Of a stretch of DNA of 32,000 nucleotides, positions 4,131 through 32,000 are shown piece by piece. A program made the translations under genes and the position numbers. Source of the DNA: Candidatus Electrothrix yaqonensis (lineage in GTDB: Bacteria > Desulfobacterota > Desulfobulbia > Desulfobulbales > Desulfobulbaceae); contig CP178758.1 of NCBI GenBank assembly GCA_047651235.1, positions 3,690,001 through 3,722,000 on the forward strand, written 5' to 3'. Under the pieces are notes generated by a model. That model worked only from the letters and a program-made list of their open reading frames with translations, had not been told where the DNA came from and ran no database searches. How positions within the stretch are numbered: the stretch's first letter is position 1; every line of letters starts with the position of its first letter.

Positions 4131-4330
4131 GGGGCGCTAAGTCCTATAAAGATAAAGGTATAAGATAAGTACATATCCGGCTGACCGCTGTTCGCTATTT
4201 TTCTATCTCGGCAGAGAGATTACGCTGAAATTCCGTTGCTGTCAATCAACAGTTCATCGGGCAGTGCAGGATGATGCGGTTGCGCACTGCTTTCCCTGTC
4301 CGGCAGAAAATAAATTCAGCATATATTGCA

Positions 4331-6496: not shown

Positions 6497-6543
6497 TCTT
6501 TCTTCCGGAAAGATACAAGGATTTGTACAGAGTGCAGTGCAGC

Positions 6544-7479: not shown

Positions 7480-7584
7480 GTTTTCCCCTTTCCTCGAAGT
7501 TTTCCAGGCACCGAAATGCTTATTTTTGAGCAGTTTTTTTGAGTAATTATTTCCTGAAAGGATATTTTTTCCACCTCCTGATTC

Positions 7585-7614
7585 ATTGTAACCCGGTGTA
7601 GGATGCCTGGTCAA
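7585..7614 (-). promoter_or_regulatory. Sigma70-like promoter candidate on the minus strand: TTGACC-N18-TACAAT
   Basis: The reverse complement of 7609-7614 is ttgacc and that of 7585-7590 is tacaat. The element is about 100 nt upstream of the preferred response-regulator start. Confidence 0.3.
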
Positions 7615-16700: not shown

Positions 16701-19700
16701 GTTCCAATACGGTGACCCTGACCTTTGATGCGGTGGTGAATGCGCCGACCGGCACGGCGGACGAGTATCTGAATTCGGCCCAGATCACGGCTTCGGACCA
16801 GTACGATCCGGATTCCGATCCGGATTCGGACGAAAACACGGACGATCTCGGCGACGGTCTTCCGGACGACGACGAGGATACGGCGGCGGTGATGCCGGAG
16901 AGCGCGGATCTGAGCCTGGTCAAGGTGGTGAACGATACAACGCCTGCCGTGGGCGACACGGTGACCTTCAGCCTGACCCTGACCAACGACGGGCCGGACA
17001 CGGCCACGAATGTTGCGGTGACGGACGTTCTTCCGGGCGGTTATACCTATGTTTCCGGGAGCATGAGCGGCGGGGACGGGCAGGATCAGAGCGGCGATCC
17101 GACCCTGGTGTGGACGGTGAACAGTCTGTCTGCGGCGGCAGGTTCCAATACGGTGACCCTGACCTTTGATGCGGTGGTGAATGCGCCGACCGGCACGGCG
17201 GACGAGTATCTGAATTCGGCCCAGATCACGGCTTCGGACCAGTACGATCCGGATTCCGATCCGGATTCGGACGAAAACACGGACGATCTCGGCGACGGTC
17301 TTCCGGACGACGACGAGGATACGGCGGCGGTGATGCCGGAGAGCGCGGATCTGAGCCTGGTCAAGGTGGTGAACGATACAACGCCTGCCGTGGGCGACAC
17401 GGTGACCTTCAGCCTGACCCTGACCAACGACGGGCCGGACACGGCCACGAATGTTGCGGTGACGGACGTTCTTCCGGGCGGTTATACCTATGTTTCCGGG
17501 AGCATGAGCGGCGGGGACGGGCAGGATCAGAGCGGCGATCCGACCCTGGTGTGGACGGTGAACAGTCTGTCTGCGGCGGCAGGTTCCAATACGGTGACCC
17601 TGACCTTTGATGCGGTGGTGAATGCGCCGACCGGCACGGCGGACGAGTATCTGAATTCGGCCCAGATCACGGCTTCGGACCAGTACGATCCGGATTCCGA
17701 TCCGGATTCGGACGAAAACACGGACGATCTCGGCGACGGTCTTCCGGACGACGACGAGGATACGGCGGCGGTGATGCCGGAGAGCGCGGATCTGAGCCTG
17801 GTCAAGGTGGTGAACGATACAACGCCTGCCGTGGGCGACACGGTGACCTTCAGCCTGACCCTGACCAACGACGGGCCGGACACGGCCACGAATGTTGCGG
17901 TGACGGACGTTCTTCCGGGCGGTTATACCTATGTTTCCGGGAGCATGAGCGGCGGGGACGGGCAGGATCAGAGCGGCGATCCGACCCTGGTGTGGACGGT
18001 GAACAGTCTGTCTGCGGCGGCAGGTTCCAATACGGTGACCCTGACCTTTGATGCGGTGGTGAATGCGCCGACCGGCACGGCGGACGAGTATCTGAATTCG
18101 GCCCAGATCACGGCTTCGGACCAGTACGATCCGGATTCCGATCCGGATTCGGACGAAAACACGGACGATCTCGGCGACGGTCTTCCGGACGACGACGAGG
18201 ACAATGTCTGTGTGACCCTTGCCTCCCTGCAACTGATCAAGCAGGTGGATCTGACCACGGATACTGCTCCGGAAGATGCAAGCAAGGACGATATCATAAC
18301 CTACACATTCAGGGTGCGGAATACCGGTGCTGAAACGCTGACGGACGTGACTGTAAGCGACCCGCTGCTCACCGGCTTGAGCTGTGATCCCATTCTTTCC
18401 CTTGCCCCGGGTACAACGGTGGACTTCAACTGTACAGGGGGCAACACGTATACGATTACGCAGCTAGATGTGGATAATGGCTATATCGACAACACGGCTA
18501 CAGCCACGGGAACGCCGCCGTGCGGGCCTGATGTGACCTCTTCCGTCGTAGCCCGCGTGAATATCGGCACTACTCCGACCTATGCCGTAGTGAGTTCATT
18601 CAGTGCGTATTTAAATGATAAAAATCAGGTGGTGCTGGAATGGAAGACCTCCAGTGAAACCGGTACGGTCGGTTTCATGCTGGAGCGGCAGAATGAGCGG
18701 ACCGGCAGATATCAGCCGGTCACGAAAAAAATACTGCCCGGTATGCTGACTCCGCCGCACGGCGGCATCTACCGCCTTGTGGATACAAGAGCAAAAGCGG
18801 GTAAGCAATATACCTACCGGGTTGTCGAAGTAGCGGCCAACGATCAGGGCACGGTTTCCGGGCCGTACACGGTGCAGGCCGATGAACCTCTGCCGAAGAA
18901 CAGCCGGATGTTTTCCGGCGGGGCCGGAGGCTACACCCTGACGCATCATAAATTTTCCGGCAGACAGTTCAGGCGTTTTACAGCCCGCAGTAAAGTGCTC
19001 CGTAAATTCGCTGCAAAGCGGAAAAACAGGGCCGGTACCGTGCTGAAGATTCCGGTCTCCCGGAACGGTTTGGTGTATTTGAGCGCTGCGGAGCTGGCAG
19101 CCGCCTCCGACCTTCCGGAGAAGCGGGTGATCAGGCAGGTGAAGTCCGGAAGATGCCGGCTGACCCTGGCAGGGAAGGCTGTTCCGCTGCTCAGGGCCAA
19201 TACCGGTTCCGACCTCTGGTTCTACGGCCGGGCTCCGGAGCGGAGCGACATCGGACAGAATATCTACCTTCTCGATTTCGGGAAAAAAGGCAAGAAAATG
19301 AAGAGTACGCGGGGCCGGGCAAAGAAGGAAGTCTCTGCGGAGCAGTCCTACCCCGCCCGTGTGCGTGCAGAGGAGAATCTGCACCCCTTCCACCTGTATA
19401 TCAATACTCCGGTGCATGATTTCTGGGCCTGGGAACTCCTGTTCGCTCATGATGCCGCCGATGATCCGGCGGGCAGTACTGCTGTTCATCCTGTTGCCGC
19501 GCCGTATCTGACAGGGGAGGGCGATGCGGCGGTTACGGTCAACTTGGTCGGAATGACAGGCCGTGGACCTGCCGGAGTGCCGCTGTACAAGGTGACAGTC
19601 TTTCTGAACGGCACGGATATCGGCACGGCGGAATGGTCGGAAAAGGGCGACTATCAGTTCCGGGCCGATATCCCGGCTGCTCTGCTGCGTGAGGAGGGCA

Positions 19701-21175
19701 ATGAAGTACAGGTCGTTTCGCAGCTGAACAGCGGCGTGACCTACTCGCTGATCTACCTAGACTCCATTGAGCTGGAGTATCTGCGCAGCTACGAGGCGGT
19801 CGATGGAGAGCTGACCTTTTCCGACGCCGGATATGACAGCGTGACGGTCCGGGGGTTCAGCAGCAGCAAGGTGCTGGCCCTTGATGTGACAACGCCGGAT
19901 GCGCCTCGGCGGGTACGGACCCTGCCCGGTAAAAATCAGGCCGGAGAATATACGGTCACTCTGCTGACCGAGCCGGGGCATACGTACTTTGTCACGGAAA
20001 ATCTCAGCCCTGTCTTTGCCGGAGAGCTGAGTGCGGACACGCCGTCGCGGCTGCGCAGGCGCTATAACCGGGCTGATTATCTGATCATTGCGCCGTTGCA
20101 TCTGATGGAGTCGGCACAGCGGCTTGCTGATCACCGGGCATCTGAAGGCCTGAAGGTCATGCTTGTCGATATCGAGGATGTGCAGGATGAATTCAGCCAC
20201 AGCCTGGCGGCTCCTGAAGCGGTGCATGACTTCCTGTCCTATGTCTATACAAACTGGATTCAGGTGCCCCCGCATGTGGCTCTGGTCGGTGCCGGATCCT
20301 ATGATTATAAAAACTACCTTGGTTACGGCTATCCCCTTGTGCCGGCCAAGCTGGCAGCAACCCCTGACGGTTTCTTCCCGTCCGACAATGTCCTGGCGGA
20401 TGTTGTCGGCAATGACGGGGTGCCTGAATTTGCGATAGGTCGGATACCTGCGGTGGACAGCACCGAGCTTGACCGCTATACTGAAAAACTGATACACTTT
20501 GAACAGGATCAGGCGGAACGCGACACCGGTACGGTAATGACGCTGGTGACGGATATGCCTGATCCGTCTGCCGGAGATTTTGCGGCCGGTGCGGACAGAG
20601 TTGCGGAACTGGTGTCGGCACAGGGAGTTGCGGTCAACCGGCTTGCCGCAGATGCGCTGGGTGTGAACGGGACGCATGACGGGATTATCAATGCGCTGCA
20701 GCAGGGAGGCGGCATTCTGCATTATATCGGTCACAGCTCGATGGTGGCCCTGGGCCGGAGCAGTGCGCTGCTCACTGCAGATGAAGTTGACGCCATGCCC
20801 GATATCGGTGTGCCTATGCTGATGGTCAGCATGACCTGCTCTGCCGGGGCCTTCGGCTATCCGCCCATGGACAGTATCGGCGAGACCGCAGTGCTGCGGG
20901 CGGACGGAGCAGCGGTGGGCTTTTTCGGGGCCTCCGGTCTGTCCGAAAACCATCTTGCCGACATAATGGCGAAAGGCTTCTACCGCAGCCTGTTTGATCC
21001 GGAGAATGTGAACCCGAGGATCGGCGATGCAGTTGTCGGCGCGAAACAGTATTATTCTGCTCAGGGCGGGGAACGGTCCGTTCTGGATATTTACAATCTG
21101 CTCGGTGATCCGGCACTGCACGGGCCGGTTGCAGTACCGGACAATAAACCAACGGACAAGATCAGGACGGATTGA
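7769..21175 (+). CDS. Giant (about 4468 aa) secreted repetitive surface/adhesin-like protein with a C-terminal peptidase C25 domain
   Basis: A single uninterrupted ORF. The signal-like segment is IRFTAAVFLLFTVLFTLFVQAAPVRAAA. The alternative start ATG 7802 has AAGGA 8 nt upstream. An SdrD-B/Cna-B-like segment (GGVHVYLFRDTTGDG...TNSNGEYSFSGQPDGTYWVVV) follows. Several dispersed DUF11-type domains carry the pattern L.K......G..vTYT....N.G......v.DxLP.G.tyv. Then come 12 tandem 147-aa units, and a C25 domain at the C-terminus. Confidence 0.88.
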   Translation: MFTEQKVRTSFMLSIYLHIAPHIAGSLSRIIRIRFTAAVFLLFTVLFTLFVQAAPVRAAANDIQGRVMEDGNADASLDDAVDTPLGGVHVYLFRDTTGDGIPNTGDDKVASTVTNSNGEYSFSGQPDGTYWVVVESADFARSGGTMEQTYGGIGALTDPDGKELTPAEPRTTAGPAFGGRRMEVPDGFSSDDPNNLEPAEHVIQVVLDSVTTHTAVDFGFGFVKGLAAGYSEFYIPTQVTGTGTEPVVDTFGEVDGGIWNILRDLDPDPAITCGMHYIISVTASTDSTTIYYDHWEDGYNFDPLNPSTADETVVRNSGEVAVFESGSIPENRGTDVYYDGRDRIFVAGGPAVVTLAIYPECVDGPPGSGSVYNAAWEILPVKPLQTKYTVPVGEGMTGNGAIDFQQTFLTIQSAADNNTITVNDPVHGVLTKTLQQGEVFDVRHTSPGTVVTGTEPLQVHALAGFQWPTAASEADGITIFPETLMDNEYYNPMGSYGDSSGDGGSNSEYATELYINNPNDSPITIQWEDASGTGTAKIPAGETRSYSEISGHFVPVDSASYLKSVGGEKFWAIGQSGVSTADVTGDTAIGDNTHTFFDGGFSLVPEYLLRSDYYLSWAPGDADPVPGTNASAAYVTAVNDGTEIFVDFDGDGEPDPFDIDGTIVTSYVLNRLESIAIRNPDSPFSLTGAHIWSNGPTSLVWAPYAKTASYVSPSLDCDYTGSPLPLDWMDAVLSVIKTTDSTALRPEANQIANFSLSIPAYKAVDNVVVRDTLPLGWNYEAGSSTATVTNSSGTFTSTADPGRSGDGLTTREVLTWDLDSLIAAGANDLDPTDYIFITFTARTNANVKPGYNQNDVEVTGTRDPGGETQTFTTTDKKAVYVTPLTIDKDTSTPVVVMNGEATYTIALENTDPDNDLTAVRATDLLPAGFTYISSSYSVIDNDPAGDGSGIGDTIPGDAAAPTTEPASGATDLTWGDWTLGNGDKLIITFIVNVGNVPGTYDNTASADATRGPDTFTVTDIGTSGNDQGTPEGEDPEEDEDVTIEPDINMDKISEVEAGVLASPGEIITYTVNIENPTGGPLNNIVVTDAVPPGTTYVPGTVTIVEGHKLDPPTVIAEEDFAVAGLSGGTGWIGDWKVLGGEADFDGGDVQINNGRLLIQDNENGGEGAYREVDITGYDSVELNFDYIGRNLVDPGDDQYVIIDISTDGTTWTELARVDESGVGSMQLDITGFIDTDTQIRFLTSSSNANRAGSFFDNIEIIGTKTDFINVPGHDPADLVIAADGYDLAANDGVDGSGPDFMQITYQVRVDDPLAAGIISIDNTAGVTSDEFMGVYKEDSESTPVFIQPEKLLVTTSEPSTGEVDGSERVTIGEMVRYRIAARIPEGSFPNFQLKDNIPSGLQFLDDGTARFSFVSNGGGITSSTLTCINDSGDAYDLISLPSAAVDCVFPAPPAGAISGGPFGSDVDVTFSLGDLTNSDSDEDAEYMVVEFNALVLNVNESPEINQGVDNTTGASIANFRPNTATLYVDDVQEGDPSDIVTVDIAEPAITDLAKTVSPGPYLPGSTVTYTLTFSNTATGNNATTAFDLVLTDTLDANLTPGTVTWLSTTQTDPCAGGTAFNHSESATGQNVTVNVSCLDPGNRVTITIEATIKDGTPGGTISNTGDVTYTSLPGEQGNCGAAPFVCSADIDERDGDDGAGSDDTVLDNYADSDTVPLDVEESADLSLVKVVNDTTPAVGDTVTFTLQVTNNGPNTATNVAVTDVLPGGYTYVSGSMSGGDGQDQSGDPTLVWTVNSLSAAAGSNTVTLTFDAVVNAPTGTADEYLNSAQITASDQYDPDSDPDSDENTDDLGDGLPDDDEDTAAVMPESADLSLVKVVNDTTPAVGDTVTFSLTLTNDGPDTATNVAVTDVLPGGYTYVSGSMSGGDGQDQSGDPTLVWTVNSLSAAAGSNTVTLTFDAVVNAPTGTADEYLNSAQITASDQYDPDSDPDSDENTDDLGDGLPDDDEDTAAVMPESADLSLVKVVNDTTPAVGDTVTFSLTLTNDGPDTATNVAVTDVLPGGYTYVSGSMSGGDGQDQSGDPTLVWTVNSLSAAAGSNTVTLTFDAVVNAPTGTADEYLNSAQITASDQYDPDSDPDSDENTDDLGDGLPDDDEDTAAVMPESADLSLVKVVNDTTPAVGDTVTFSLTLTNDGPDTATNVAVTDVLPGGYTYVSGSMSGGDGQDQSGDPTLVWTVNSLSAAAGSNTVTLTFDAVVNAPTGTADEYLNSAQITASDQYDPDSDPDSDENTDDLGDGLPDDDEDTAAVMPESADLSLVKVVNDTTPAVGDTVTFSLTLTNDGPDTATNVAVTDVLPGGYTYVSGSMSGGDGQDQSGDPTLVWTVNSLSAAAGSNTVTLTFDAVVNAPTGTADEYLNSAQITASDQYDPDSDPDSDENTDDLGDGLPDDDEDTAAVMPESADLSLVKVVNDTTPAVGDTVTFTLQVTNNGPNTATNVAVTDVLPGGYTYVSGSMSGGDGQDQSGDPTLVWTVNSLSAAAGSNTVTLTFDAVVNAPTGTADEYLNSAQITASDQYDPDSDPDSDENTDDLGDGLPDDDEDTAAVMPESADLSLVKVVNDTTPAVGDTVTFSLTLTNDGPDTATNVAVTDVLPGGYTYVSGSMSGGDGQDQSGDPTLVWTVNSLSAAAGSNTVTLTFDAVVNAPTGTADEYLNSAQITASDQYDPDSDPDSDENTDDLGDGLPDDDEDTAAVMPESADLSLVKVVNDTTPAVGDTVTFSLTLTNDGPDTATNVAVTDVLPGGYTYVSGSMSGGDGQDQSGDPTLVWTVNSLSAAAGSNTVTLTFDAVVNAPTGTADEYLNSAQITASDQYDPDSDPDSDENTDDLGDGLPDDDEDTAAVMPESADLSLVKVVNDTTPAVGDTVTFSLTLTNDGPDTATNVAVTDVLPGGYTYVSGSMSGGDGQDQSGDPTLVWTVNSLSAAAGSNTVTLTFDAVVNAPTGTADEYLNSAQITASDQYDPDSDPDSDENTDDLGDGLPDDDEDTAAVMPESADLSLVKVVNDTTPAVGDTVTFSLTLTNDGPDTATNVAVTDVLPGGYTYVSGSMSGGDGQDQSGDPTLVWTVNSLSAAAGSNTVTLTFDAVVNAPTGTADEYLNSAQITASDQYDPDSDPDSDENTDDLGDGLPDDDEDTAAVMPESADLSLVKVVNDTTPAVGDTVTFSLTLTNDGPDTATNVAVTDVLPGGYTYVSGSMSGGDGQDQSGDPTLVWTVNSLSAAAGSNTVTLTFDAVVNAPTGTADEYLNSAQITASDQYDPDSDPDSDENTDDLGDGLPDDDEDTAAVMPESADLSLVKVVNDTTPAVGDTVTFSLTLTNDGPDTATNVAVTDVLPGGYTYVSGSMSGGDGQDQSGDPTLVWTVNSLSAAAGSNTVTLTFDAVVNAPTGTADEYLNSAQITASDQYDPDSDPDSDENTDDLGDGLPDDDEDNVCVTLASLQLIKQVDLTTDTAPEDASKDDIITYTFRVRNTGAETLTDVTVSDPLLTGLSCDPILSLAPGTTVDFNCTGGNTYTITQLDVDNGYIDNTATATGTPPCGPDVTSSVVARVNIGTTPTYAVVSSFSAYLNDKNQVVLEWKTSSETGTVGFMLERQNERTGRYQPVTKKILPGMLTPPHGGIYRLVDTRAKAGKQYTYRVVEVAANDQGTVSGPYTVQADEPLPKNSRMFSGGAGGYTLTHHKFSGRQFRRFTARSKVLRKFAAKRKNRAGTVLKIPVSRNGLVYLSAAELAAASDLPEKRVIRQVKSGRCRLTLAGKAVPLLRANTGSDLWFYGRAPERSDIGQNIYLLDFGKKGKKMKSTRGRAKKEVSAEQSYPARVRAEENLHPFHLYINTPVHDFWAWELLFAHDAADDPAGSTAVHPVAAPYLTGEGDAAVTVNLVGMTGRGPAGVPLYKVTVFLNGTDIGTAEWSEKGDYQFRADIPAALLREEGNEVQVVSQLNSGVTYSLIYLDSIELEYLRSYEAVDGELTFSDAGYDSVTVRGFSSSKVLALDVTTPDAPRRVRTLPGKNQAGEYTVTLLTEPGHTYFVTENLSPVFAGELSADTPSRLRRRYNRADYLIIAPLHLMESAQRLADHRASEGLKVMLVDIEDVQDEFSHSLAAPEAVHDFLSYVYTNWIQVPPHVALVGAGSYDYKNYLGYGYPLVPAKLAATPDGFFPSDNVLADVVGNDGVPEFAIGRIPAVDSTELDRYTEKLIHFEQDQAERDTGTVMTLVTDMPDPSAGDFAAGADRVAELVSAQGVAVNRLAADALGVNGTHDGIINALQQGGGILHYIGHSSMVALGRSSALLTADEVDAMPDIGVPMLMVSMTCSAGAFGYPPMDSIGETAVLRADGAAVGFFGASGLSENHLADIMAKGFYRSLFDPENVNPRIGDAVVGAKQYYSAQGGERSVLDIYNLLGDPALHGPVAVPDNKPTDKIRTD
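12932..18201 (+). repeat. Tandem array, about 11.95 x 441 bp (147 codons, in frame), inside the giant CDS
   Basis: Unit starts (agcgcggatctgagcctggtc) fall at 12932, 13373, 13814 and so on to 17783, exactly 441 bp apart. The units translate identically except for a 50-bp variant patch in units 1 and 6. Each unit is a DUF11 domain (ADLSLVKVVNDTTPAVGDTVTF...VTDVLPGGYTYVSGS) plus an acidic DPDSDPDSDENTDDLGDGLPDDDED linker. Confidence 0.95.
20063..21123 (+). other. Peptidase C25 (gingipain-like, clan CD) domain of the giant protein
   Basis: YNRADYLIIAPLHLMESAQRLADHR...VMLVDIEDVQDEF...VALVGAGSYDYKN...IGRIPA is the C25 N-terminal pattern. The candidate catalytic His is in LHYIGHSS (codon 20732-20734, residue 4322). 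The candidate Cys is in VSMTCSAGAF (20837-20839, residue 4357). The 35-residue spacing is similar to the roughly 33 residues in RgpB. Confidence 0.7.
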
Positions 21176-21471
21176 TGGTGCAGCTCGATAGTATTTACAG
21201 ACAGGCCGACAATATCGTCACCCGCAGGATTATGGATGAAACCCTGCTGGTGCCCGTTTCCGGTGAGCTTGCCTCCATGGAGGAACTGTATACCCTCAAT
21301 GAGACCGGGGATTTCATATGGCAGGCGTTGGACGGCGTTCGTCCTCTTTCCGAGATCAGGTGCCAGCTTGAAGAGCAGTATGACGCACCGGCAGAGGAGA
21401 TTGAAGCGGATCTGCTGGAAATCATAAGCGGGCTGGCCGATGCCGGGCTGGTTACTTCTGTTGGAGGATGA
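21175..21471 (+). CDS. PqqD-family protein (RiPP recognition element / peptide chaperone)
   Basis: 98 aa. ...RRIMDETLLVPVSGE...LYTLNETGDFIWQALDGVRPLSEIRCQLEEQYDAPAEEIEADLLEIISGLADAGLV fits the PqqD pattern (LN.tg..iW..ldG..t..ei...l...y......e.D...fl..L...gl). The ATG overlaps the giant gene's TGA (TGATG), and AGGA lies 7 nt upstream. Confidence 0.8.
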   Translation: MVQLDSIYRQADNIVTRRIMDETLLVPVSGELASMEELYTLNETGDFIWQALDGVRPLSEIRCQLEEQYDAPAEEIEADLLEIISGLADAGLVTSVGG

Positions 21472-22628
21472 CGACTTTGGAAACAGACTGCACCGGCAGA
21501 GAACCTGATAATTCTGATGATCTGGCTCGTTATTTTGCCAGAGCTGCGCAGGCGAGGACACCGCTGGCTGCTACGTTCGAGCTGACCCGGCGGTGCAACT
21601 TCCGTTGTGTCCACTGTTATCTTGGTGATCAGCAGGCAATTCGTCAGCATCGCCATCAGGAACTGGACACGGACAGCGTTATCAGGCTGCTTGATGAGAT
21701 GGTGGAGGCCGGAACCCTGTTTCTTACCCTGACCGGAGGGGACCCCATGCTGCGGCCTGATTTTGTCAGGATTTACGCACATGCGGTCCGCATCGGTCTG
21801 TTGGTTTCAGTGTATTGCAACGGCTCACTGATCACAGAGGAGATTACAGAGGTATTTGTTCAATATCCTCCAAGGATCGCTGAAATTACTTTGTACGGTG
21901 CAACCCGGAAGACCTTTGAGACGATAACACAGCGCCGGGGGAGCTATGCAGACTGCATGAAAGGTATTGCTCTGCTGCACAGGGCAAAGGTGCGGCTGCG
22001 GCTGAAATCCATGGCCATGACGCTGAATTACGAAGAACTGCCTGCCATGCGGAAGATAGCCGGGGATTTGGGCCTGTCATTTCGGCATGACTGCTCCGTC
22101 ATTCCCGCTCTTCCTCATGAAGATAATGGCAGTCGGATAAACATTCGGGATACCGGAAAAAACGGCCTGCGGGAGACCTTGGGTTTCCGCCTTGAACCTG
22201 AGCAGGCTGCGGCAGTGGATTTCGGGGCAGCCGAAGTAAAGAAAAAACTGCAGGAGCTGACGGCTGAGAAAGGAGCTGCTGCAGAGCCGTCAACAAAATT
22301 GTACCAGTGCGGGGCAGGGCAGGCATCATACCATATTACCTCGTACGGCAGAATGCAGCCCTGTCTCATCACGCTTCGGCCTTCTGTTGATCTCGTCGCC
22401 GGGGAACAGCGAATTGCAGACGGTTGGAATACGTTGTGCGCACAGGTTGAGGAACAGACAGTAACAACTGATTTTCCCTGTATCGAATGCAAGGACAGCA
22501 AGTTATGTACGGGCTGCCCAAGCAGATTCTTTAGAGAAACAGGCTCGCCGGAGGAACCGCCTTCCTTTTATTGTCATTATGCGGCATGCCGCAGGCGAGG
22601 AAGCTCAAAGGAAACAGGGCTTCAATAA
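21468..22628 (+). CDS. Radical SAM / SPASM-domain peptide-modifying enzyme
   Basis: CNFRCVHCY gives CX3CX2C (Cys codon at 21594), and TLTGGDPMLRPDF is present. The C-terminus CGAGQASYHITSYGRMQPC gives CX12GX4C, and CIECKDSKLCTGC gives CX2CX5CX2C plus later Cys residues, which is a SPASM-type pattern. ATG 21468 overlaps the PqqD stop (ATGA). An alternative start is TTG 21477, 9 nt after GGAGG. Confidence 0.85.
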   Translation: MTTLETDCTGREPDNSDDLARYFARAAQARTPLAATFELTRRCNFRCVHCYLGDQQAIRQHRHQELDTDSVIRLLDEMVEAGTLFLTLTGGDPMLRPDFVRIYAHAVRIGLLVSVYCNGSLITEEITEVFVQYPPRIAEITLYGATRKTFETITQRRGSYADCMKGIALLHRAKVRLRLKSMAMTLNYEELPAMRKIAGDLGLSFRHDCSVIPALPHEDNGSRINIRDTGKNGLRETLGFRLEPEQAAAVDFGAAEVKKKLQELTAEKGAAAEPSTKLYQCGAGQASYHITSYGRMQPCLITLRPSVDLVAGEQRIADGWNTLCAQVEEQTVTTDFPCIECKDSKLCTGCPSRFFRETGSPEEPPSFYCHYAACRRRGSSKETGLQ

Positions 22629-22727
22629 AATACAGCTTACTGAGATTATTCCTACCTTAGGAATTTTTGAAGAAAAAGTCAAAAGCTCGGAGCATTCGAT
22701 ACTGAGCGAATAAATGGAACAGAAATA

Positions 22728-22916
22728 ATGAAAGAACAACAACACGGCACAGCTCCTGTTAAGCAGCAGGAGGAGACCGAAGGAATCGTGCAGAAACAGC
22801 CTTATGAAAAACCCCGGCTTGACAGGGTGAAATTATTTGCCGATCAGGTCTTGGCTTCCTGTTCAGGGGGGGCAATGGCTCCTCCATGCGGCATTTTTGA
22901 CCCTCTTGCATCATAA
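22728..22916 (+). CDS. Candidate RiPP precursor peptide (62 aa)
   Basis: MKEQQHGTAPVKQQEETEGIVQKQPYEKPRLDRVKLFADQVLASCSGGAMAPPCGIFDPLAS. It sits between the rSAM/SPASM and kinase genes on the same strand. It has a polar leader-like N-terminal half, YEKPRL (YxxPxL, 22803-22820), two Cys in a Gly/Ala/Pro-rich tail, and a terminal Ser (22911-22913). The RBS is weak (GGA about 11-13 nt upstream) and no homology can be checked here. Confidence 0.45.
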   Translation: MKEQQHGTAPVKQQEETEGIVQKQPYEKPRLDRVKLFADQVLASCSGGAMAPPCGIFDPLAS

Positions 22917-22926
22917 CAGGCTTGAT

Positions 22927-23862
22927 TTGAGCAACGCAGGGCATCCTGTTGTAGACAGCGTATACAGTATAGGGGGGGTATTTGTTACGCTTAACTCGGA
23001 ACGTTATCTGGTGCCGGAAGACTCTTCCGCTGCAGAGAACAGTGTCTTTGTTTATCCTGCAACTGCAGAATATGCAGCTGCTTCAGCTGCAGTCCCCTGT
23101 ATTTATGTATATATAGCTGCTTTACAGCAGAGATCTTCTCCAGCAGTAGGCGAAAAAATATTTTCTCAGCAGCGGGCATGTCTCTACAGGGCTGAAAACG
23201 GCTACATCCAACAGTATTATCTGGATGATAAAAAACAGGAGATCCTCTGGAAACTCGCAATTGACCATGAGTTTTCCCGGTTTAACTATTTTCTCTGCGC
23301 AGATAAGGTTAACCGGGAGGAGTCGGTCCGGCTTGATCCCTGGAAACTGGCATCCACTCTTTTTCTCTTGCAGCACAGTTTTATCAATCACCAGGGCCTG
23401 ATCATTCACGCTGCCGGAGGCTCTGTTTCCGGGAAAGGGCTGGTCTTTTCCGCTCCTTCCGGCACCGGAAAATCCACCCTCAGCAGGCTGTTGCTGCACT
23501 CTCCGGATAACCGGCTTTTCAGTGAAGAGCGTCTGATCATCCGCTCTGTTGAGAACAAGTGGCAGGTATGGGGAACCCCCTGGCATGGGGAAGGGAACAT
23601 TGCCCGAAATGAATCCGCCCCGCTCTCCGCGCTGGTTTTTCTCCGACAGGCCCAGAAAACAGAAATTACCCGACTGTCTCCGGCGGACGGGCTGCACCGG
23701 CTGGTGCAGACAGCGTCCATTCCTTGGTACAGTAAGCAATGGACAGAAAAAGGGCTTGCTCTCTGTGAACGATTGATTCAGGATATCCCGATCTTCGAGC
23801 TTGCCTTCCGGCCGGACCGGACTGCAGTGCAGGCTGTGGAGCGTCTTGCAGCGGAGTTGTAA
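22927..23862 (+). CDS. HPr kinase/phosphorylase C-terminal-domain-like P-loop protein (HprK-related kinase)
   Basis: GLIIHAAGGSVSGKGLVFSAPSGTGKSTLSRLL matches the HprK C-domain pattern (H...v...g.GvLi.G.SG.GKS). The stop is secure but the start is uncertain. The ORF track opens at TTG 22837, overlapping the 62-aa ORF by 80 nt. No in-frame ATG exists. TTG 22927 lies just after the peptide's stop and keeps the N-terminal YSIGGVFVTLNS segment. Confidence 0.7.
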   Translation: MSNAGHPVVDSVYSIGGVFVTLNSERYLVPEDSSAAENSVFVYPATAEYAAASAAVPCIYVYIAALQQRSSPAVGEKIFSQQRACLYRAENGYIQQYYLDDKKQEILWKLAIDHEFSRFNYFLCADKVNREESVRLDPWKLASTLFLLQHSFINHQGLIIHAAGGSVSGKGLVFSAPSGTGKSTLSRLLLHSPDNRLFSEERLIIRSVENKWQVWGTPWHGEGNIARNESAPLSALVFLRQAQKTEITRLSPADGLHRLVQTASIPWYSKQWTEKGLALCERLIQDIPIFELAFRPDRTAVQAVERLAAEL

Positions 23863-23897
23863 ATTCTAAACTCAACGGAAAAGTGAGGCAGGGGCGT

Positions 23898-24467
23898 ATG
23901 GAACACAATTTTTTTCTGCTGCGGATATTTTTTCCTCTCTTCCTGTTCTGCTTTTCTCCGGTTGCAGCAGCAACAGAACTGCTCTCAGAGTCATTTTCCG
24001 CCTGTGAACTCCCTGAAAACTGGGAAGTGGAAAATCTTGGCGGTGACTGTCGCTGGATATTTGACAGCAACAGGCAGAACGAGACCGGCGGAGAGGGTTG
24101 TTATGCGATGGCCAGCAGTGAGGACTGCAGTTCAGGGACAAGCATGGATACAGTACTTTTCGTTTCTCCTGTTGACTGCTCCAGGTTGACAGAAACAACT
24201 CTTTCTTTTCAATACGATGCGTATGAACAGCTGAATGCCAGCACCTTTGCTGTAGAAATTTCTCTTGACGAAGGAAACGACTGGTCTCAAATCTGGGTTA
24301 GAAACCAGTCCGATCCCGGACCAAAAACAGCTGTCTTGGATATCAGCGCAGAAGCAGACAGGCGACCTTCCGTGTTGATCCGGTTTCGCTATACAGCTTC
24401 TGCAAAGGATTGGTGGTGGCAGGTTGATGATGTACAAATTTCCGGCAAGAAAGGAAAGAACAGGTGA
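23898..24467 (+). CDS. Secreted beta-sandwich protein (MAM / choice-of-anchor-J-like, tentative)
   Basis: ATG 23898 is preceded by GAGGCAGGGG (the ORF track opens at GTG 23883). The signal peptide is MEHNFFLLRIFFPLFLFCFSPVAAA. The pattern ESF....LPENW.....GG...W......GGEG.Y......LSFQY......EISLDEGNDW...LIRFRY......WWQVDDVQISG supports the fold call, which rests on pattern memory only. Confidence 0.55.
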   Translation: MEHNFFLLRIFFPLFLFCFSPVAAATELLSESFSACELPENWEVENLGGDCRWIFDSNRQNETGGEGCYAMASSEDCSSGTSMDTVLFVSPVDCSRLTETTLSFQYDAYEQLNASTFAVEISLDEGNDWSQIWVRNQSDPGPKTAVLDISAEADRRPSVLIRFRYTASAKDWWWQVDDVQISGKKGKNR

Positions 24468-24993
24468 ACTGGCTCCTTTTTCTGCCTGCGATGATCAGTC
24501 GGCAACAGCAGCCTCTATGAGTGTGTCATCCGTTATCAGTATCCGGGATCAGGGTGCGCTTGATCTGGTACGCTCTCTGCTGAAACAGGGAATATCTGTC
24601 CGCATCCGGGTTTCCGGCAGCTCTATGCGGCCGCTGCTCAGCGGTGGAGAAATCATTGAAGTGGCTCCCCCTGCAGCCCGATCACCCAAAATTGGGGAGA
24701 TCCTTTTGTTCTATGATCAGCAGGGGAACCCGCTCGTTCATCGCCTGATCAGACGTCGTTGTTGCAACAAGGTCCTTTATCTGCAGACCAAGGGTGATGC
24801 CTGCGCAGGTTGTGATGGTTTTATTCCGGCAGGGCAGGTTCTCGGCCGTGTTCAGCGTATCATTATCAAGCATAATACTATTGATCTGCAGCACCCGGTC
24901 ATGCATTTTCGTTCCTTCTTTATTGCTCTCCGAAGTCTGATATTGTATTATTATCTGCAGTTCTGCAATAGACTGTCTTCTGCATCTGATTAA
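24427..24993 (+). CDS. S24/S26-family serine peptidase, SipW-like (S26B signal-peptidase fold)
   Basis: VSGSSMRPLLSGGEIIEV...GEILLFYD...LVHRLI...LQTKGDACAGCD parallels the SipW/archaeal-type signal peptidase I motifs SGSMxP...GD...V, HR and TKGDNN..D. The start is uncertain: ATG 24427 overlaps the upstream gene by 41 nt, and the alternative is ATG 24517. There is a hydrophobic C-terminal segment FRSFFIALRSLILYYYLQF. Confidence 0.65.
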   Translation: MMYKFPARKERTGELAPFSACDDQSATAASMSVSSVISIRDQGALDLVRSLLKQGISVRIRVSGSSMRPLLSGGEIIEVAPPAARSPKIGEILLFYDQQGNPLVHRLIRRRCCNKVLYLQTKGDACAGCDGFIPAGQVLGRVQRIIIKHNTIDLQHPVMHFRSFFIALRSLILYYYLQFCNRLSSASD

Positions 24994-25197: not shown

Positions 25198-25226
25198 TTT
25201 ACAACCAGCTTTATTTCCGTTATAAT
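25198..25226 (+). promoter_or_regulatory. Sigma70-like promoter candidate: TTTACA-N17-TATAAT
   Basis: tttaca at 25198-25203 and tataat at 25221-25226, about 45 nt upstream of ATG 25273. Confidence 0.4.
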
Positions 25227-25272
25227 TTCATATTAGAGGAGCTTGAAAATTATTCGAGACAGGGAGGAAAAA

Positions 25273-26031
25273 ATGAAAAGTCCGTCGTTCATAAACTGCA
25301 ATGTAATATTTTTGACTGTTCTGCTGACTGTCTGTTTTTGGGGGACGACAGCCGCCGAAGCGCAGACCGGTTCTATAAAAGGTTATGCGAAAGATAAGGA
25401 CAGTGGGGACGGTATACCGAATATACATGTGCGGGTATGCATTGATCCATGCCTTAAGCAGAGCGATTGGATTACCGAGGCAGAAGATACACAGACGGAA
25501 CCTGTCGGATACTATGAAGTGACGGGACTTCCTGCAGGAACATATAAAGTGAGATATCTCACGTATAGCATTGATACTCCTTCGTATGTGGCTCAATGGT
25601 ACAACAGCTTGGATTATGCTGATGCTGAAGATGTAGATGTTAAAACCGATCAGGCTGTTAGCCTGGACGATGTGCTGCTTGAGCAGGGTGTAAGCATTAC
25701 AGGGACGGTGACAGATGCCGACTTTGCCCCTATTGCAGAGGTGAGAGTATATGCGTACAAGGAAGGTGACAGGGATAACTGGGTGGCCTCTGCTATAATA
25801 ACTGAACCGGACACAAATTACACTCTTTCCGGTTTGGCTCCGGGGATCAACTATAAAATATATTTTATGGCCGACGGGTATATCAGCGAGTGGTATGATG
25901 ATAAACGCGGTTCTGTCGAATCGGTTCCTGCCGGTGCTGCTGATGTTCTTAGCGGCACTACCGATATCGATACTGTCCTGAATAAACGAGTATCTCTTGT
26001 GCCGGTATATTATCTGCTGTTACTGAAGTAG
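25273..26031 (+). CDS. Secreted protein with two carboxypeptidase-regulatory-like (CarboxypepD_reg) domains
   Basis: ATG 25273 is preceded by AGGGAGG (25261-25267); the ORF track opens at 25243. The signal peptide is MKSPSFINCNVIFLTVLLTVCFWGTTAAEA. The two domains are GSIKGYAKDKDSGDGIPNIHVRV...GYYEVTGLPAGTYKVRY and VSITGTVTDADFAPIAEVRVYAY...YTLSGLAPGINYKIYF. A short hydrophobic tail follows: VSLVPVYYLLLLK. Confidence 0.7.
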   Translation: MKSPSFINCNVIFLTVLLTVCFWGTTAAEAQTGSIKGYAKDKDSGDGIPNIHVRVCIDPCLKQSDWITEAEDTQTEPVGYYEVTGLPAGTYKVRYLTYSIDTPSYVAQWYNSLDYADAEDVDVKTDQAVSLDDVLLEQGVSITGTVTDADFAPIAEVRVYAYKEGDRDNWVASAIITEPDTNYTLSGLAPGINYKIYFMADGYISEWYDDKRGSVESVPAGAADVLSGTTDIDTVLNKRVSLVPVYYLLLLK

Positions 26032-28425: not shown

Positions 28426-28448
28426 AAAGATTCTGCTCACAGGATTAT

Positions 28449-30371: not shown

Positions 30372-30415
30372 TATTAGGAGTTACGCAGTTGGCAAAAATC
30401 TGGTAACATAGCTGC

Positions 30416-31196: not shown

Positions 31197-31300
31197 CTCC
31201 TAATTATATTAGAGTTATTCCTGAATAACTTCCGAGTCCCCAAAAACAGCCACTTGAAAAACGAAAAATGGGCCTGTAATCTTATACAGGAACAACTCTA

Positions 31301-31999: not shown

Positions 32000-32000
32000 T

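What the first reader, a model, noticed from the sequence alone, without database searches (positions are those of the whole stretch)
21175..24993. Atypical RiPP-like cassette: PqqD RRE, rSAM/SPASM enzyme, small peptide, HPr-kinase-like enzyme and SipW-like peptidase, with no lasso enzymes
Seen in sequence: six consecutive same-strand ORFs are separated by overlaps or gaps of at most 100 nt. They are a PqqD-family protein; an rSAM/SPASM enzyme with explicit CX3CX2C and CX12GX4C...CX2CX5CX2C motifs; a 62-aa ORF; a protein with the HprK C-domain P-loop (IHAAGG...GKGLVFSAPSGTGKST); a secreted beta-sandwich protein; and an S26B-like peptidase.

Established knowledge: PqqD-like RREs deliver leader peptides to rSAM/SPASM maturases (PQQ, sactipeptides, ranthipeptides, mycofactocin). 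To my knowledge, HPr-kinase homologues act as RiPP tailoring enzymes only in paeninodin-type lasso clusters, where they phosphorylate the precursor's C-terminal Ser.

Inference: this window has no Asn-synthetase-like lasso cyclase and no transglutaminase-like B2 protease. The kinase therefore appears to be recruited to an rSAM/SPASM pathway, which predicts a crosslinked and phosphorylated peptide. I do not know of a described system with this combination.
Basis: partly seen in the sequence, partly recalled or inferred. Interest (0 to 1): 0.85.

Follow-up and report, generated by a model that had tools for sequence, protein, structure and literature searches.

The report
Uncharacterised peptide-modifying gene cassette in cable bacteria
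A cable bacterium carries a conserved gene set that most likely turns a small two-cysteine peptide into a cross-linked, phosphorylated product; relatives are widespread and often sit beside a giant surface protease gene, but none appears to have been studied experimentally.

Summary
The window comes from Candidatus Electrothrix sp. YB6. It encodes, on one strand and tightly packed: a PqqD-type peptide-binding protein, a radical SAM/SPASM enzyme, a 62-aa peptide, an HprK/PEPCK-fold P-loop enzyme, a secreted choice-of-anchor J protein and a soluble S26B-like Ser/His peptidase.

The peptide is a real gene. All 16 related cable-bacterium loci carry a homologue; 14 of them hold the complete PqqD-rSAM-peptide-ScmC order. 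The peptide has a conserved leader (YEKPxLxxVxLFADQVL), a hypervariable core with two Cys, and usually a C-terminal Ser.

Searches anchored on the kinase-like gene and on the rSAM gene both recover the same cassette in many unrelated metagenomes. The RiPP reading and the idea of a kinase recruited to an rSAM pathway are therefore supported.

Two corrections apply. The combination is already catalogued, untested, as the SynChlorMet cassette and Pfam ScmC; this locus is a distant relative that fails all four NCBIfam cut-offs.

The chemistry is inferred, not shown. I rate this a new variant of a known kind, with moderately high interest.

The parts
7769..21175 (+). Giant secreted protein (4468 aa). 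Domain order: signal-peptide-like N-terminus, SdrD_B/CarboxypepD_reg-like domain, about 12 near-identical DUF11 repeats, DUF7507, a conserved pre-C25 region, and a C-terminal Peptidase_C25 domain with His (IGHSS) and Cys (SMTCSAG) present.
   Evidence: ORF. Pfam DUF11 1.6e-39, DUF7507 2.9e-20, Peptidase_C25 7.4e-66. Repeat of 441 bp x 12 at 99% identity. Catalytic motifs. Its stop codon TGA overlaps the PqqD ATG (TGATG). A homologous C-terminal module precedes PqqD in 14 of 16 cable-bacterium loci. It adjoins the cassette in 5 of 6 distinct non-cable loci.
21175..21471 (+). Stand-alone PqqD-family protein (98-99 aa), the presumed leader-peptide recognition element (RRE).
   Evidence: PF05402 1.1e-16, 61.3 bits. 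Weak hits to PQQ PqqD, lasso PqqD chaperones and ScmD, all below their cut-offs. R18, V27, P28, W50, D80 and L93 are invariant in 21 orthologues.
21468..22628 (+). Radical SAM/SPASM enzyme (386 aa) with a short N-terminus and no fused RRE domain.
   Evidence: PF04055 3.3e-22. CX3CX2C and 7 SPASM Cys are invariant in 18/18. The best NCBIfam hits are all far below their cut-offs: AhbD, NirJ2, MftC, StsB, AlbA, ScmE/F, PapB. Best solved relatives are PqqE, BlsE and SkfB.
22728..22916 (+). Precursor peptide (62 aa): MKEQQHGTAPVKQQEETEGIVQKQPYEKPRLDRVKLFADQVLA|SCSGGAMAPPCGIFDPLAS. The bar marks the inferred leader/core boundary.
   Evidence: Called as a gene in an independent assembly. A homologue is present in all 16 cable-bacterium loci, sometimes in two copies. 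The 18-aa leader block has 65% mean pairwise identity against 32% for the core; 23 of 24 cores have exactly two Cys; 17 of 24 end in Ser. Distant loci keep PYxxPxL...EEVL..GCK...C..C..GS. No NCBIfam model matches.
22906..23862 (+). ScmC-family P-loop enzyme (318 aa) with an HprK/PEPCK-like fold; the presumed ATP-dependent phosphotransferase.
   Evidence: Precomputed Pfam PF27840 ScmC. NCBIfam scores: ScmC 34 bits (cut-off 125), HprK_rel_A 29, HprK_rel_B 28. H168, S185, G188, K189, T191 and the GTPW motif are invariant. AlphaFold2 model with pLDDT 87. Foldseek top hits are PEPCK at 1.7e-6 and HprK/P at 2.5e-4. 26% identity to a lasso-cluster Hpr_kinase_C protein over the catalytic core.
23883..24467 (+). 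Secreted choice-of-anchor J / cleaved-adhesin-like protein (189-194 aa). It is an accessory, not part of the conserved core.
   Evidence: NF038128 1.9e-10, above its cut-off; Cleaved_Adhesin 2.2e-4. Present in 7 of 16 cable-bacterium loci and in none of the six non-cable loci tested for it.
24517..24993 (+). Soluble S26B-like Ser/His peptidase (about 158 aa; the ORF opens at 24424); the presumed leader peptidase.
   Evidence: sigpep_I_arch 1.5e-10, 41 bits against a cut-off of 51.85. The family profile's best solved matches are human SEC11C/SEC11A at 2e-8 and 5e-8. GxSMxP, HR and GD are invariant in 13 and in 21 orthologues. No segment reaches transmembrane-level hydropathy. It follows the ScmC gene in 14 of 16 cable-bacterium loci and in most distant loci.
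25243..26031 (+). Secreted CarboxypepD_reg/SdrD_B-domain protein (262 aa). It is a conserved downstream neighbour in cable bacteria and probably a separate transcription unit.
   Evidence: Pfam hits at 6e-16 and 6.6e-8. A homologue lies downstream in 14 of 16 cable-bacterium loci. An 11/12-match promoter-like site lies at 25198-25226. It was not detected in the six non-cable loci tested for it.

Best explanation
This is a ribosomal-peptide (RiPP) maturation cassette.

Proposed steps:
1. The 62-aa precursor is bound through its conserved YEKPxL...LFADQVL leader by the stand-alone PqqD protein. This is inferred from the family's known role.
2. PqqD presents the precursor to the radical SAM/SPASM enzyme, which modifies the short core that carries two invariant Cys. 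The most likely products are Cys-derived thioether cross-links of the sacti/ranthipeptide type. This is inferred.
3. The ScmC-type HprK/PEPCK-fold P-loop enzyme uses ATP to phosphorylate a hydroxyl group. The most likely site is the C-terminal Ser, as HprK-type kinases do on linear lasso precursors. This is inferred from analogy and from the Ser enrichment.
4. The soluble S26B-like Ser/His peptidase removes the leader near the VL(G/A/S) / xC junction. This is inferred.

In cable bacteria and a sister clade, the cassette is co-transcribed with a giant secreted Peptidase_C25 protein. The product therefore probably acts at the cell surface together with that protein, rather than only as a free antibiotic.

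What is shown: the genes, their family and fold assignments, their invariant catalytic residues, the leader/core architecture of the peptide, and the conserved co-occurrence. What is not shown: any of the chemistry or the biological role.
For: - Family, fold and catalytic residues.
- Precursor signature: the leader block is 65% identical against 32% for the core; 23 of 24 cores have two Cys; core length is 15-21 aa.
- ScmC-anchored genome scan: 16 loci, all cable bacteria, 14 with giant-PqqD-rSAM-peptide-ScmC in order and 14 with the S26-like gene.
- Distant ScmC homologues in six further contexts show the same cassette.
- rSAM-anchored metagenome scan, counting only loci with at least 2.5 kb on both sides: ScmC is present in 9/10 of the closest clade and 10/11 of the next clade, against 1/5 for out-group rSAMs.
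- C-terminal Ser: 17 of 24 cable-bacterium peptides, 6 of 8 and about 16 of 20 distant peptides. The closest non-cable clade ends in an almost invariant Gly-Ser.
- PadeK phosphorylates the C-terminal Ser of the linear precursor, and that Ser is 'extremely conserved' where such kinases occur (PMC9266682).
- Related cassettes also carry NTP_transf_5 nucleotidyltransferases. A kinase gene next to an annotated nucleotidyltransferase gene is also found in a lasso peptide cluster described in PMC9266682.
- The leader Y-x-x-P-x-L is shared with a lasso precursor encoded beside one of these cassettes (L020).
- The rSAM has no fused RRE, so a separate PqqD is needed, as in PqqE/PqqD.
- The peptidase has no membrane anchor, and it stays with the cassette in loci where no C25 homologue was detected.
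Against: - No chemistry has been demonstrated for any member. My literature searches found nothing on this cassette.
- The rSAM's nearest models are non-peptide enzymes (AhbD, NirJ) and MftC, all at roughly 20% of their cut-offs. The reaction type therefore cannot be read from homology.
- 7 of 24 cable-bacterium peptides do not end in Ser.
- The residue before the first Cys is not always small, so the cleavage site is uncertain.
- No exporter is encoded in the cable-bacterium loci. ABC transporters appear only in distant relatives.
- The S26-like gene was not called in one automated annotation.
- No expression data are available.
Confidence: 0.6

Rival explanations
1. The cassette is the same, but its purpose is to serve the giant C25 protein. 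The matured peptide would be a covalently attached adaptor, a cofactor-like partner, or a trans-acting regulator or inhibitor of the C25 domain. C25 enzymes include the sortase-like PorU. On this reading the system is a surface-protein maturation or anchoring system, not a producer of a free natural product.
For: - The giant gene's stop codon overlaps the PqqD start codon.
- The C25 module is adjacent in 14 of 16 cable-bacterium loci, in 5 of 6 distinct non-cable loci, and in 7 of 10 well-flanked closest-clade metagenome loci.
- Some loci carry two C25 giants flanking the cassette.
- No exporter is encoded in these loci.
- C25-less relatives instead sit beside Wzy_C O-antigen-ligase-like, Wzz and sugar-modifying genes.
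- PorU-type C25 enzymes cleave and re-attach surface proteins by a sortase-like mechanism (title and abstract of PMC4560394, listed).
Against: - The cassette exists without any detected C25 gene in 11 of 11 well-flanked loci of the next clade and in L020. The peptide pathway is therefore self-sufficient and older than the linkage.
- A hypervariable core is more typical of a bioactive or recognition peptide than of a fixed adaptor.
- No sequence feature links the peptide to the giant protein.
Confidence: 0.25
2. The ScmC-like protein is not a C-terminal Ser kinase. It could phosphorylate an internal Ser or Thr, for example as a leaving group. It could activate a carboxylate. Or it could be an ATP-dependent scaffold for the rSAM enzyme.
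For: - It scores only 28-34 bits against every HprK-related NCBIfam model, and Pfam Hpr_kinase_C did not hit.
- Its top structural matches are PEPCK, which phosphorylates an enolate, rather than HprK.
- 7 of 24 cable-bacterium peptides lack a C-terminal Ser, and the cores are 15% Ser overall.
- Peptide+ScmC pairs are duplicated without a second rSAM in L008, L014 and L020.
Against: - The His, P-loop and acidic residues aligned with the HprK catalytic core are invariant.
- The C-terminal Ser, or Gly-Ser, is by far the most conserved core feature besides Cys, across loci from many unrelated metagenomes.
- No lyase or other partner for an elimination route is conserved in the cassette.
Confidence: 0.25
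3. The rSAM/SPASM enzyme modifies a protein (the C25 giant or the choice-of-anchor J protein), as anaerobic sulfatase-maturing enzymes do. On this reading the small ORF is incidental, and the S26-like protein is a dedicated signal peptidase for the neighbouring secreted proteins, as SipW is.
For: - Several secreted proteins flank the cassette.
- The rSAM's nearest models are not peptide maturases.
- The S26-like protein's closest solved relatives are true signal peptidases.
Against: - The small ORF is conserved in every locus, with a leader/core pattern.
- A PqqD RRE is always present.
- The cassette persists where no C25 homologue was detected; choice-of-anchor J homologues were absent from the six non-cable loci tested.
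- The S26-like protein has no transmembrane anchor, which true type I signal peptidases need.
- No anSME model appears among the 25 best rSAM hits.
Confidence: 0.04

Closest known systems
SynChlorMet (SCM) cassette: ScmC, ScmD (PqqD-like), ScmE and ScmF (two rSAM/SPASM); NCBIfam TIGR04249, TIGR04248, TIGR04250, TIGR04251; Pfam PF27840 ScmC
   Same: It has the same three-way combination of an HprK-like P-loop protein, a PqqD homologue and rSAM/SPASM. The window protein carries the PF27840 annotation, and ScmC is its best NCBIfam hit.
   Different: - All four NCBIfam cut-offs are missed by a wide margin: 34/125, 25/100, 62/400 and 65/400 bits.
- None of 21 clade members reaches the ScmC cut-off, and they are equally close to HprK_rel_B.
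- There is one rSAM here, not two.
- The S26-like peptidase, the defined precursor family and the C25 linkage are not features I know from the SCM definition (own knowledge of the model names only).
- As far as I could find, SCM itself has never been characterised.
Kinase-tailored lasso peptides (paeninodin PadeK, ThcoK, SyanK; pseudomycoidin PsmK/PsmN)
   Same: - An HprK-superfamily kinase acts with a PqqD-type RRE.
- The precursor has a conserved C-terminal Ser that is phosphorylated on the linear precursor (PMC9266682, PMC12639078).
- The leader carries Y-x-x-P-x-L (lasso motif from own knowledge; seen in the L020 lasso precursor).
- Relatives of the cassette pair the kinase-like gene with a nucleotidyltransferase.
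   Different: - There is no Asn-synthetase-like cyclase and no transglutaminase-like B2 protease in the scanned window ORFs.
- The core lacks the Asp/Glu at position 7-9 that lasso cores carry for ring closure (own knowledge of lasso cores).
- An rSAM/SPASM enzyme and an S26-like peptidase take their place.
- The kinase-like protein is only 26% identical to a lasso-cluster kinase, over about 80 residues.
PQQ and mycofactocin pathways (PqqD/PqqE; MftB/MftC/MftE)
   Same: A stand-alone PqqD-type RRE works with a SPASM rSAM that has no fused RRE, alongside a dedicated peptidase. PqqE is the best solved relative and MftC is among the top models.
   Different: Those precursors have highly conserved cores that become cofactors. 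Here the core is hypervariable apart from Cys and the terminal Ser. Those pathways have no kinase.
Sactipeptides and ranthipeptides (AlbA, SkfB, CteB, PapB)
   Same: They use rSAM/SPASM maturases that act on Cys-containing cores after RRE-mediated leader binding. Weak model hits are found to StsB, AlbA, SkfB and PapB.
   Different: - In those enzymes the RRE is fused to the maturase; here it is separate.
- No family cut-off is met.
- No conserved acceptor residue or Cys-X3-Asp/Glu pattern is visible in the cores.
- Thioether formation is untested.
S26B signal peptidases (SipW, archaeal SPase I, eukaryotic SEC11)
   Same: The Ser/His/Asp catalytic motifs GxSMxP, HR and GD are invariant. The best solved matches are SEC11C/SEC11A.
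   Different: - There is no transmembrane anchor.
- Scores are below the NCBIfam cut-offs, and only 20 bits against a SipW cut-off of 190.
- It is genetically tied to a cytoplasmic peptide-modification cassette.
Peptidase_C25 proteins (gingipains; the sortase-like PorU of type IX secretion)
   Same: The giant protein ends in a full-length C25 domain with the catalytic His and Cys. A cleaved-adhesin-like protein lies nearby.
   Different: The C25 domain sits at the extreme C-terminus of a DUF11-repeat giant, in a cable bacterium (Desulfobulbaceae-type MAG titles). No type IX C-terminal domain is evident from reading the last 80 residues (no model was run). Linkage to an rSAM/RRE/kinase cassette is not a known feature of the family.

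Membership tests
SynChlorMet (SCM) cassette | ScmC equivalog (TIGR04249) at or above 125 bits | tested here: not met
   34 bits for the window protein. The best E-value among 21 clade members is 4.8e-9, and none reaches the cut-off.
SynChlorMet (SCM) cassette | ScmD PqqD-like equivalog (TIGR04248) at or above 100 bits | tested here: not met
   24.9 bits.
SynChlorMet (SCM) cassette | Two rSAM/SPASM proteins, ScmE (TIGR04250) and ScmF (TIGR04251), each at or above 400 bits | tested here: not met
   There is a single rSAM gene. It scores 61.9 bits against ScmE and 65.2 bits against ScmF.
Pfam PF27840 (ScmC family) | Match to the family model | tested here: met
   The precomputed PF27840 hit is recorded for the identical protein and for nearly all homologues. 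The local Pfam scan returned no family for this protein, presumably because this model is not in that copy, so I could not reproduce the score.
RRE-dependent rSAM/SPASM RiPP pathway | PqqD-like RRE, separate from or fused to the maturase | tested here: met
   PF05402 at 61.3 bits against a cut-off of 23.4. It is present in 8/10 and 11/11 well-flanked related loci.
RRE-dependent rSAM/SPASM RiPP pathway | CX3CX2C cluster plus a seven-Cys SPASM domain | tested here: met
   All ten Cys are invariant in 18/18 orthologues. Model alignments to NirJ2, ScmE and PapB span the C-terminal domain. The Pfam SPASM model itself did not score.
RRE-dependent rSAM/SPASM RiPP pathway | Adjacent small precursor with a conserved leader and a variable core | tested here: met
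   24 cable-bacterium and more than 25 distant peptides were collected. Leader identity is 65% against 32% for the core.
RRE-dependent rSAM/SPASM RiPP pathway | An rSAM-installed cross-link or other modification on the peptide | not testable with these tools
   This needs expression and mass spectrometry.
Kinase-tailored (paeninodin-type) lasso peptide cluster | Asn-synthetase-like lasso cyclase and transglutaminase-like B2 protease | tested here: not met
   Neither domain was found in the window ORFs that were scanned.
Kinase-tailored (paeninodin-type) lasso peptide cluster | HprK-superfamily kinase | tested here: inconclusive
   The fold and catalytic core match PEPCK and HprK/P. However, Pfam Hpr_kinase_C did not hit, and HprK_rel_A/B scores are 28-29 bits against a cut-off of 200.
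Kinase-tailored (paeninodin-type) lasso peptide cluster | Conserved C-terminal Ser on the precursor | tested here: met
   The window peptide ends in Ser. So do 17 of 24 cable-bacterium peptides and most distant ones.
HPr-rel-A system (NCBIfam TIGR04352/TIGR04353) | HprK-related kinase A at or above 200 bits, plus its dedicated PqqD family protein | tested here: not met
   29 bits for the kinase model. No HPr-rel-A-system PqqD model appears among the five families listed for the PqqD protein.
Type I signal peptidase, S26B (SipW/SEC11 type) | Ser/His catalytic pair and the GD box | tested here: met
   S36, H75 and G93-D94 (numbered from the Met at 24517) are invariant in 13 sequences. They align with the SEC11 catalytic motifs.
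Type I signal peptidase, S26B (SipW/SEC11 type) | Membrane anchor, and a family-model score above the cut-off | tested here: not met
   The maximum 19-residue hydropathy is 0.65-1.54 in four orthologues. Scores are 41.2 against 51.85 for sigpep_I_arch and 20.1 against 190 for SipW.
Anaerobic sulfatase-maturase-type protein-modifying SPASM enzymes | Best match to an anSME model, and a sulfatase-like target nearby | tested here: inconclusive
   No anSME model is among the 25 best of 68 NCBIfam hits, and no sulfatase gene is in the window. The remaining 43 hits were not listed.

The most novel reading that the evidence does not exclude
The cassette and the giant C25 protein form a single surface system. 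A short Cys-cross-linked peptide, phosphorylated at its C-terminal Ser, would be made in the cytoplasm and then joined to, or used by, the C25 (sortase-like) domain of a giant DUF11-repeat protein. It might act as an adaptor between surface protein and envelope glycan, or as a variable recognition tag. The system was found in every cable-bacterium genome recovered by the scan. It could therefore bear on how these filamentous, electrically conductive bacteria build or recognise their shared envelope. A role in sulfur-ligated metal binding is conceivable but has no direct support here.
Probability: 0.12. Interest if true: 0.85.

Novelty: new variant of a known kind. Interest (0 to 1): 0.62.

Why it matters
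Phosphorylated RiPPs are rare. A November 2025 paper lists microcin C, paeninodin, pseudomycoidin, phospeptin, salivaricin 10 and cyanobactins (PMC12639078). As far as I know, none of these is an rSAM/SPASM product.

This cassette would add three things: an rSAM-dependent class with an HprK/PEPCK-fold kinase; a signal-peptidase-family leader protease, which I have not seen described in a RiPP pathway; and a lasso-like YxxPxL leader handled by a non-lasso pathway.

The ScmC-like family is large. A profile search finds 2,670 clusters (at 50% identity) at E <= 1e-30 and 11,091 at E <= 1e-10. One experiment on one member would therefore annotate thousands of genes.

The conserved coupling to giant Peptidase_C25 surface proteins, in all 16 cable-bacterium genomes recovered, gives a testable lead on an uncharacterised envelope system in organisms that cannot yet be manipulated genetically.

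Tried and rejected
A 12-sequence alignment worked, but it reached only cable bacteria.
- Literature searches returned nothing relevant: 'SynChlorMet'; cable bacteria + radical SAM; HPr kinase + PqqD + radical SAM; HPr kinase + RiPP + SPASM; HprK + radical SAM + RiPP; Electrothrix + RiPP terms.
- A search that included 'ScmC' was swamped by unrelated acronyms.
- The RRE-Finder paper and a Bacteroidales RiPP-mining paper do not mention HPr-type kinases.
- The Haft and Basu 2011 paper is not held.
- A sequence-only PDB search with the ScmC profile gave only generic P-loop matches. The fold search was needed.
- I suspected that multi-rSAM metagenome loci (L051, L057, L058) were true SCM cassettes. 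Their proteins also fail the SCM cut-offs, so I never saw a bona fide SCM locus and could not compare its precursor.
- I looked for the leader motif inside the giant protein as a possible second RRE substrate. There are only two chance Y..P.[LVIF] matches, with no LxADQVL context.
- Precursor peptides match no NCBIfam model even at E = 10.
- I considered a lasso reading, with the enzymes encoded elsewhere. I rejected it because of the core sequence and the absence of the lasso genes from the scanned window ORFs; the other 16 loci were searched only with the window's own proteins.

Full report
**Source and anatomy.** The HprK-like protein is 100% identical to a hypothetical protein of Candidatus Electrothrix sp. 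YB6, a cable bacterium, on a 3.74-Mb contig.

- PqqD: 21172/21175-21471.
- rSAM: 21468-22628.
- 62-aa ORF: 22728-22916.
- HprK-like gene: an independent gene call on an identical Logan contig starts it at TTG 22906 rather than 22837.
- Secreted protein: 23883-24467.
- S26-like ORF: 24424-24993. Its real start, by alignment with orthologues, is the ATG at 24517.

The same independent gene call includes the 62-aa ORF but not the S26-like ORF.

**Component identities.**

- *PqqD.* It passes Pfam PF05402 at 61.3 bits against a cut-off of 23.4.
- *rSAM.* It passes Radical_SAM. It has CX3CX2C at C43/C47/C50 and seven further Cys (281, 299, 338, 341, 347, 350, 369). All ten are invariant in 18 of 18 orthologues drawn from cable bacteria and from unrelated non-cable metagenome contigs. 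Only about 35 residues precede the first cluster, so there is no fused RRE. Its NCBIfam hits sit at roughly 15-30% of the respective cut-offs: AhbD 101, NirJ2 93, MftC 84, StsB 74, AlbA 65, ScmF 65, ScmE 62, PapB 60 and PqqE 56 bits. The best solved relatives are PqqE, BlsE and SkfB. Homology therefore does not assign a reaction.
- *HprK-like protein.* It carries the precomputed Pfam family PF27840 'ScmC'. Its best NCBIfam hit is the SynChlorMet cassette protein ScmC, at 34 bits against a cut-off of 125. HprK-related kinases A and B follow at 28-29 bits. H168, the P-loop residues S185/G188/K189/T191 and a GTPW motif are invariant in 21 homologues. An AlphaFold2 model (pLDDT 87) matches PEPCK at 1.7e-6 and HprK/P at 2.5e-4. 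The catalytic core aligns at 26% identity with an Hpr_kinase_C protein from a lasso cluster.
- *Secreted protein.* It is a choice-of-anchor J domain protein, scoring above the model's cut-off.
- *S26-like protein.* It has invariant GxSMxP, HR and GD motifs. Its family profile's best solved matches are human SEC11C and SEC11A at 2e-8 and 5e-8, ahead of bacterial SPase I and LexA. It has no segment of transmembrane-level hydropathy in four orthologues. It also misses the NCBIfam cut-offs.

**The peptide is a real, conserved precursor-like gene.** A scan of 185,579 species-representative genomes with a ScmC alignment returned 16 loci. All are Electrothrix, Electronema or Desulfobulbaceae MAGs (the alignment reached only close relatives).

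- Fourteen loci show the order giant-protein C-terminus, PqqD, rSAM, peptide, ScmC.
- Fourteen carry the S26-like gene.
- Seven carry the choice-of-anchor J gene.
- Fourteen carry a downstream CarboxypepD_reg-type gene.
- Every locus has at least one homologue of the 62-aa ORF. Electronema-type loci have a second copy between PqqD and the rSAM.

Across 24 cable-bacterium peptides, the 18-residue block YEKPxLxxVxLFADQVLx is 65% identical on average without gaps. The remainder is 32% identical even after optimal alignment. It is 15-21 residues long and rich in S, C, G and P. It has exactly two Cys in 23 of 24 cases and ends in Ser in 17 of 24. This is the classic leader/core pattern of a RiPP precursor.

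**The cassette is much wider than cable bacteria.** Six distinct contexts of distant ScmC homologues all contain PqqD, rSAM, a 45-79-aa ORF, ScmC and the S26-like gene.

- Five of the six peptide sets read PYxxPxLxxIxLxxEEVLxxGCK...C-x3-C...GS: three Cys and a C-terminal Gly-Ser.
- A Firmicute-like locus (L020) has three shorter variants, two ScmC genes and an ABC transporter. A separate lasso-type cluster lies 3 kb away. Its precursor shares the Y-x-x-P-x-L leader and also ends in Ser.

I then anchored a search independently on the rSAM. A metagenome scan returned 80 loci. Among loci with at least 2.5 kb on both sides:

| rSAM clade | ScmC present | PqqD present | C25 present |
|---|---|---|---|
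| Closest | 9/10 | 8/10 | 7/10 |
| Next | 10/11 | 11/11 | 0/11 |
| Out-group rSAMs | 1/5 | 1/5 | 1/5 |

Many of these loci encode peptides of the same design. About 16 of 20 clear cases end in Ser, mostly Gly-Ser. A profile of the ScmC-like family finds 2,670 clusters (at 50% identity) at E <= 1e-30 and 11,091 at E <= 1e-10 among 1.84 billion representatives.

**The overlooked partner.** The ORF immediately upstream (7769-21175) encodes a 4468-aa protein. It has a signal-peptide-like N-terminus, SdrD_B/CarboxypepD_reg-like and DUF11 domains, DUF7507, and a full-length C-terminal Peptidase_C25 domain at 7.4e-66 with the catalytic His and Cys present. It includes twelve 441-bp repeats at 99% identity. 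Its TGA stop overlaps the PqqD ATG as TGATG.

A homologous pre-C25 + C25 module adjoins the cassette in several settings:

- 14 of 16 cable-bacterium loci.
- 5 of 6 distinct non-cable loci. The arrangement is upstream and co-directional, divergent in one locus, and duplicated on both sides in two.
- 7 of 10 well-flanked closest-clade metagenome loci.

The next clade lacks C25 (0 of 11). It carries instead ABC transporters, NTP_transf_5 nucleotidyltransferases, Wzy_C O-antigen-ligase-like proteins, Wzz-type proteins or sugar aminotransferases. The peptide pathway is therefore the older, self-sufficient unit. The C25 linkage is a clade-specific but robust coupling that points to the cell surface.

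**Most likely mechanism.** What is shown: the genes, their folds, their invariant catalytic residues, the peptide architecture and the co-occurrence. The following steps are inferred.

- PqqD binds the YEKPxL leader. Stand-alone PqqD-type B1 proteins bind lasso leaders with nanomolar affinity (PMC5067487). The invariant N43, W50 and D80 here recall the PadeB1 residues N40, W49 and D79, whose mutation weakens binding. I could not align the two proteins, so this is only suggestive.
- The rSAM/SPASM enzyme acts on the two-Cys core. A thioether cross-link is the commonest outcome for Cys-bearing cores, but it is not established here.
- The ScmC-like enzyme phosphorylates the C-terminal Ser. PadeK and relatives do exactly this on linear precursors, and that Ser is 'extremely conserved' wherever such kinases occur (PMC9266682). 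The same review mentions an annotated nucleotidyltransferase gene beside the putative kinase gene psmK; kinase-like genes paired with NTP_transf_5 genes recur in relatives of this cassette.
- The soluble S26B-like peptidase removes the leader. In the non-cable clade, the residues at -1 and -3 before the first Cys are small (G, and A/S/G). This fits the signal-peptidase rule. In cable bacteria a V-L-(G/A/S) site fits 15 of 24 peptides (by inspection).

I put about 0.8 on 'RiPP-type peptide maturation cassette' and about 0.4 on the specific chemistry. The overall figure is 0.6.

**Comparison with known systems.** The closest catalogued system is the SynChlorMet cassette. It has the same three protein types, but all four of its model cut-offs are missed and there is one rSAM instead of two. 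Twenty further clade members, and three multi-rSAM relatives, also fail the cut-offs.

- It works like a kinase-tailored lasso pathway at the leader and at the C-terminus, but it lacks the cyclase and the B2 protease.
- It resembles PQQ and mycofactocin in using a separate RRE with an rSAM that has no fused RRE, but its core is hypervariable.
- I found no publication on this cassette.
- A November 2025 list of phosphorylated RiPPs contains no entry I recognise as an rSAM/SPASM product (PMC12639078).

**Verdict.** The feature is real, conserved and widespread. It is bioinformatically flagged at the family level but experimentally uncharacterised. I rate it a new variant of a known kind, with interest 0.62.

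Noticed in passing
window 12928-18201: There are twelve tandem 441-bp repeats at 99% identity inside the giant gene (DUF11 units). GC is about 0.63 here against about 0.52 around it. The 1787-aa antisense ORF at 12869-18232, and the series of 120-aa antisense ORFs, are by-products of this repeat. Copy number may be unreliable in assemblies.
   Followed up: partly
window 26197-27132 and 27139-32000: Short fragmentary ORFs with no Pfam hit (transposase-like by eye only) separate the cassette from a low-GC (0.30-0.43) polysaccharide gene block: a Polysacc_synt flippase, a WecG/TagA glycosyltransferase and a GT1 glycosyltransferase. It is unclear whether this adjacency is functional or an island junction.
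   Followed up: partly
window 2469-7614: Upstream of the giant gene lie a DUF4139 protein (- strand), a 741-aa STAND/AAA_22 NTPase (+ strand) and a LuxR-type response regulator (- strand, divergent from the giant gene). The regulator may control the operon.
   Followed up: no
L020 1-13370: One metagenome contig carries a ScmC cassette (two ScmC genes, three precursor variants, an S26-like gene and an ABC transporter). About 3 kb away is a lasso-type cluster with Hpr_kinase_C, Transglut_core3 and a precursor with a YTAPKL leader and a C-terminal Ser. Both kinase-tailored systems are therefore side by side.
   Followed up: partly
L008 3711-6885; L014 5254-11035; L005 173-1320: Peptide+ScmC pairs (and in L014 a second giant C25 gene plus a peptide) are duplicated without a second PqqD or rSAM. 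This suggests the kinase-like enzyme tracks the peptide variant more closely than the rSAM does.
   Followed up: no
L067, L068, L075-L077, L080, L081, L083: A distant clade has the inverted order ScmC-rSAM-PqqD. It includes one contig labelled human gut metagenome (L081). No precursor of the YxxPxL type was recognised there; the regex hits in L080 and L081 look spurious.
   Followed up: no
L032 10860-12932; L070 8444-10579; L035 11092-14384: C25-less relatives of the cassette are followed by Wzy_C O-antigen-ligase-like proteins, an NTP_transf_5 nucleotidyltransferase and a Wzz/GNVR-type protein. NTP_transf_5 homologues recur in seven loci. This is a second, independent pointer to surface glycoconjugates.
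   Followed up: partly
window 25198-26031: The downstream 262-aa CarboxypepD_reg/SdrD_B protein shares its domain types with the N-terminus of the giant protein. It has its own strong promoter-like site (TTTACA-17-TATAAT). It is conserved downstream in 14 of 16 cable-bacterium loci but was not detected in the six non-cable loci tested.
   Followed up: partly
L017 4082-5980: In Ca. Electrothrix laxa, about 1.9 kb separates the peptide gene from the ScmC gene; the two are adjacent or overlapping in the window and in several other loci (for example L002-L004, L015, L016). The content of the insert was not examined.
   Followed up: no
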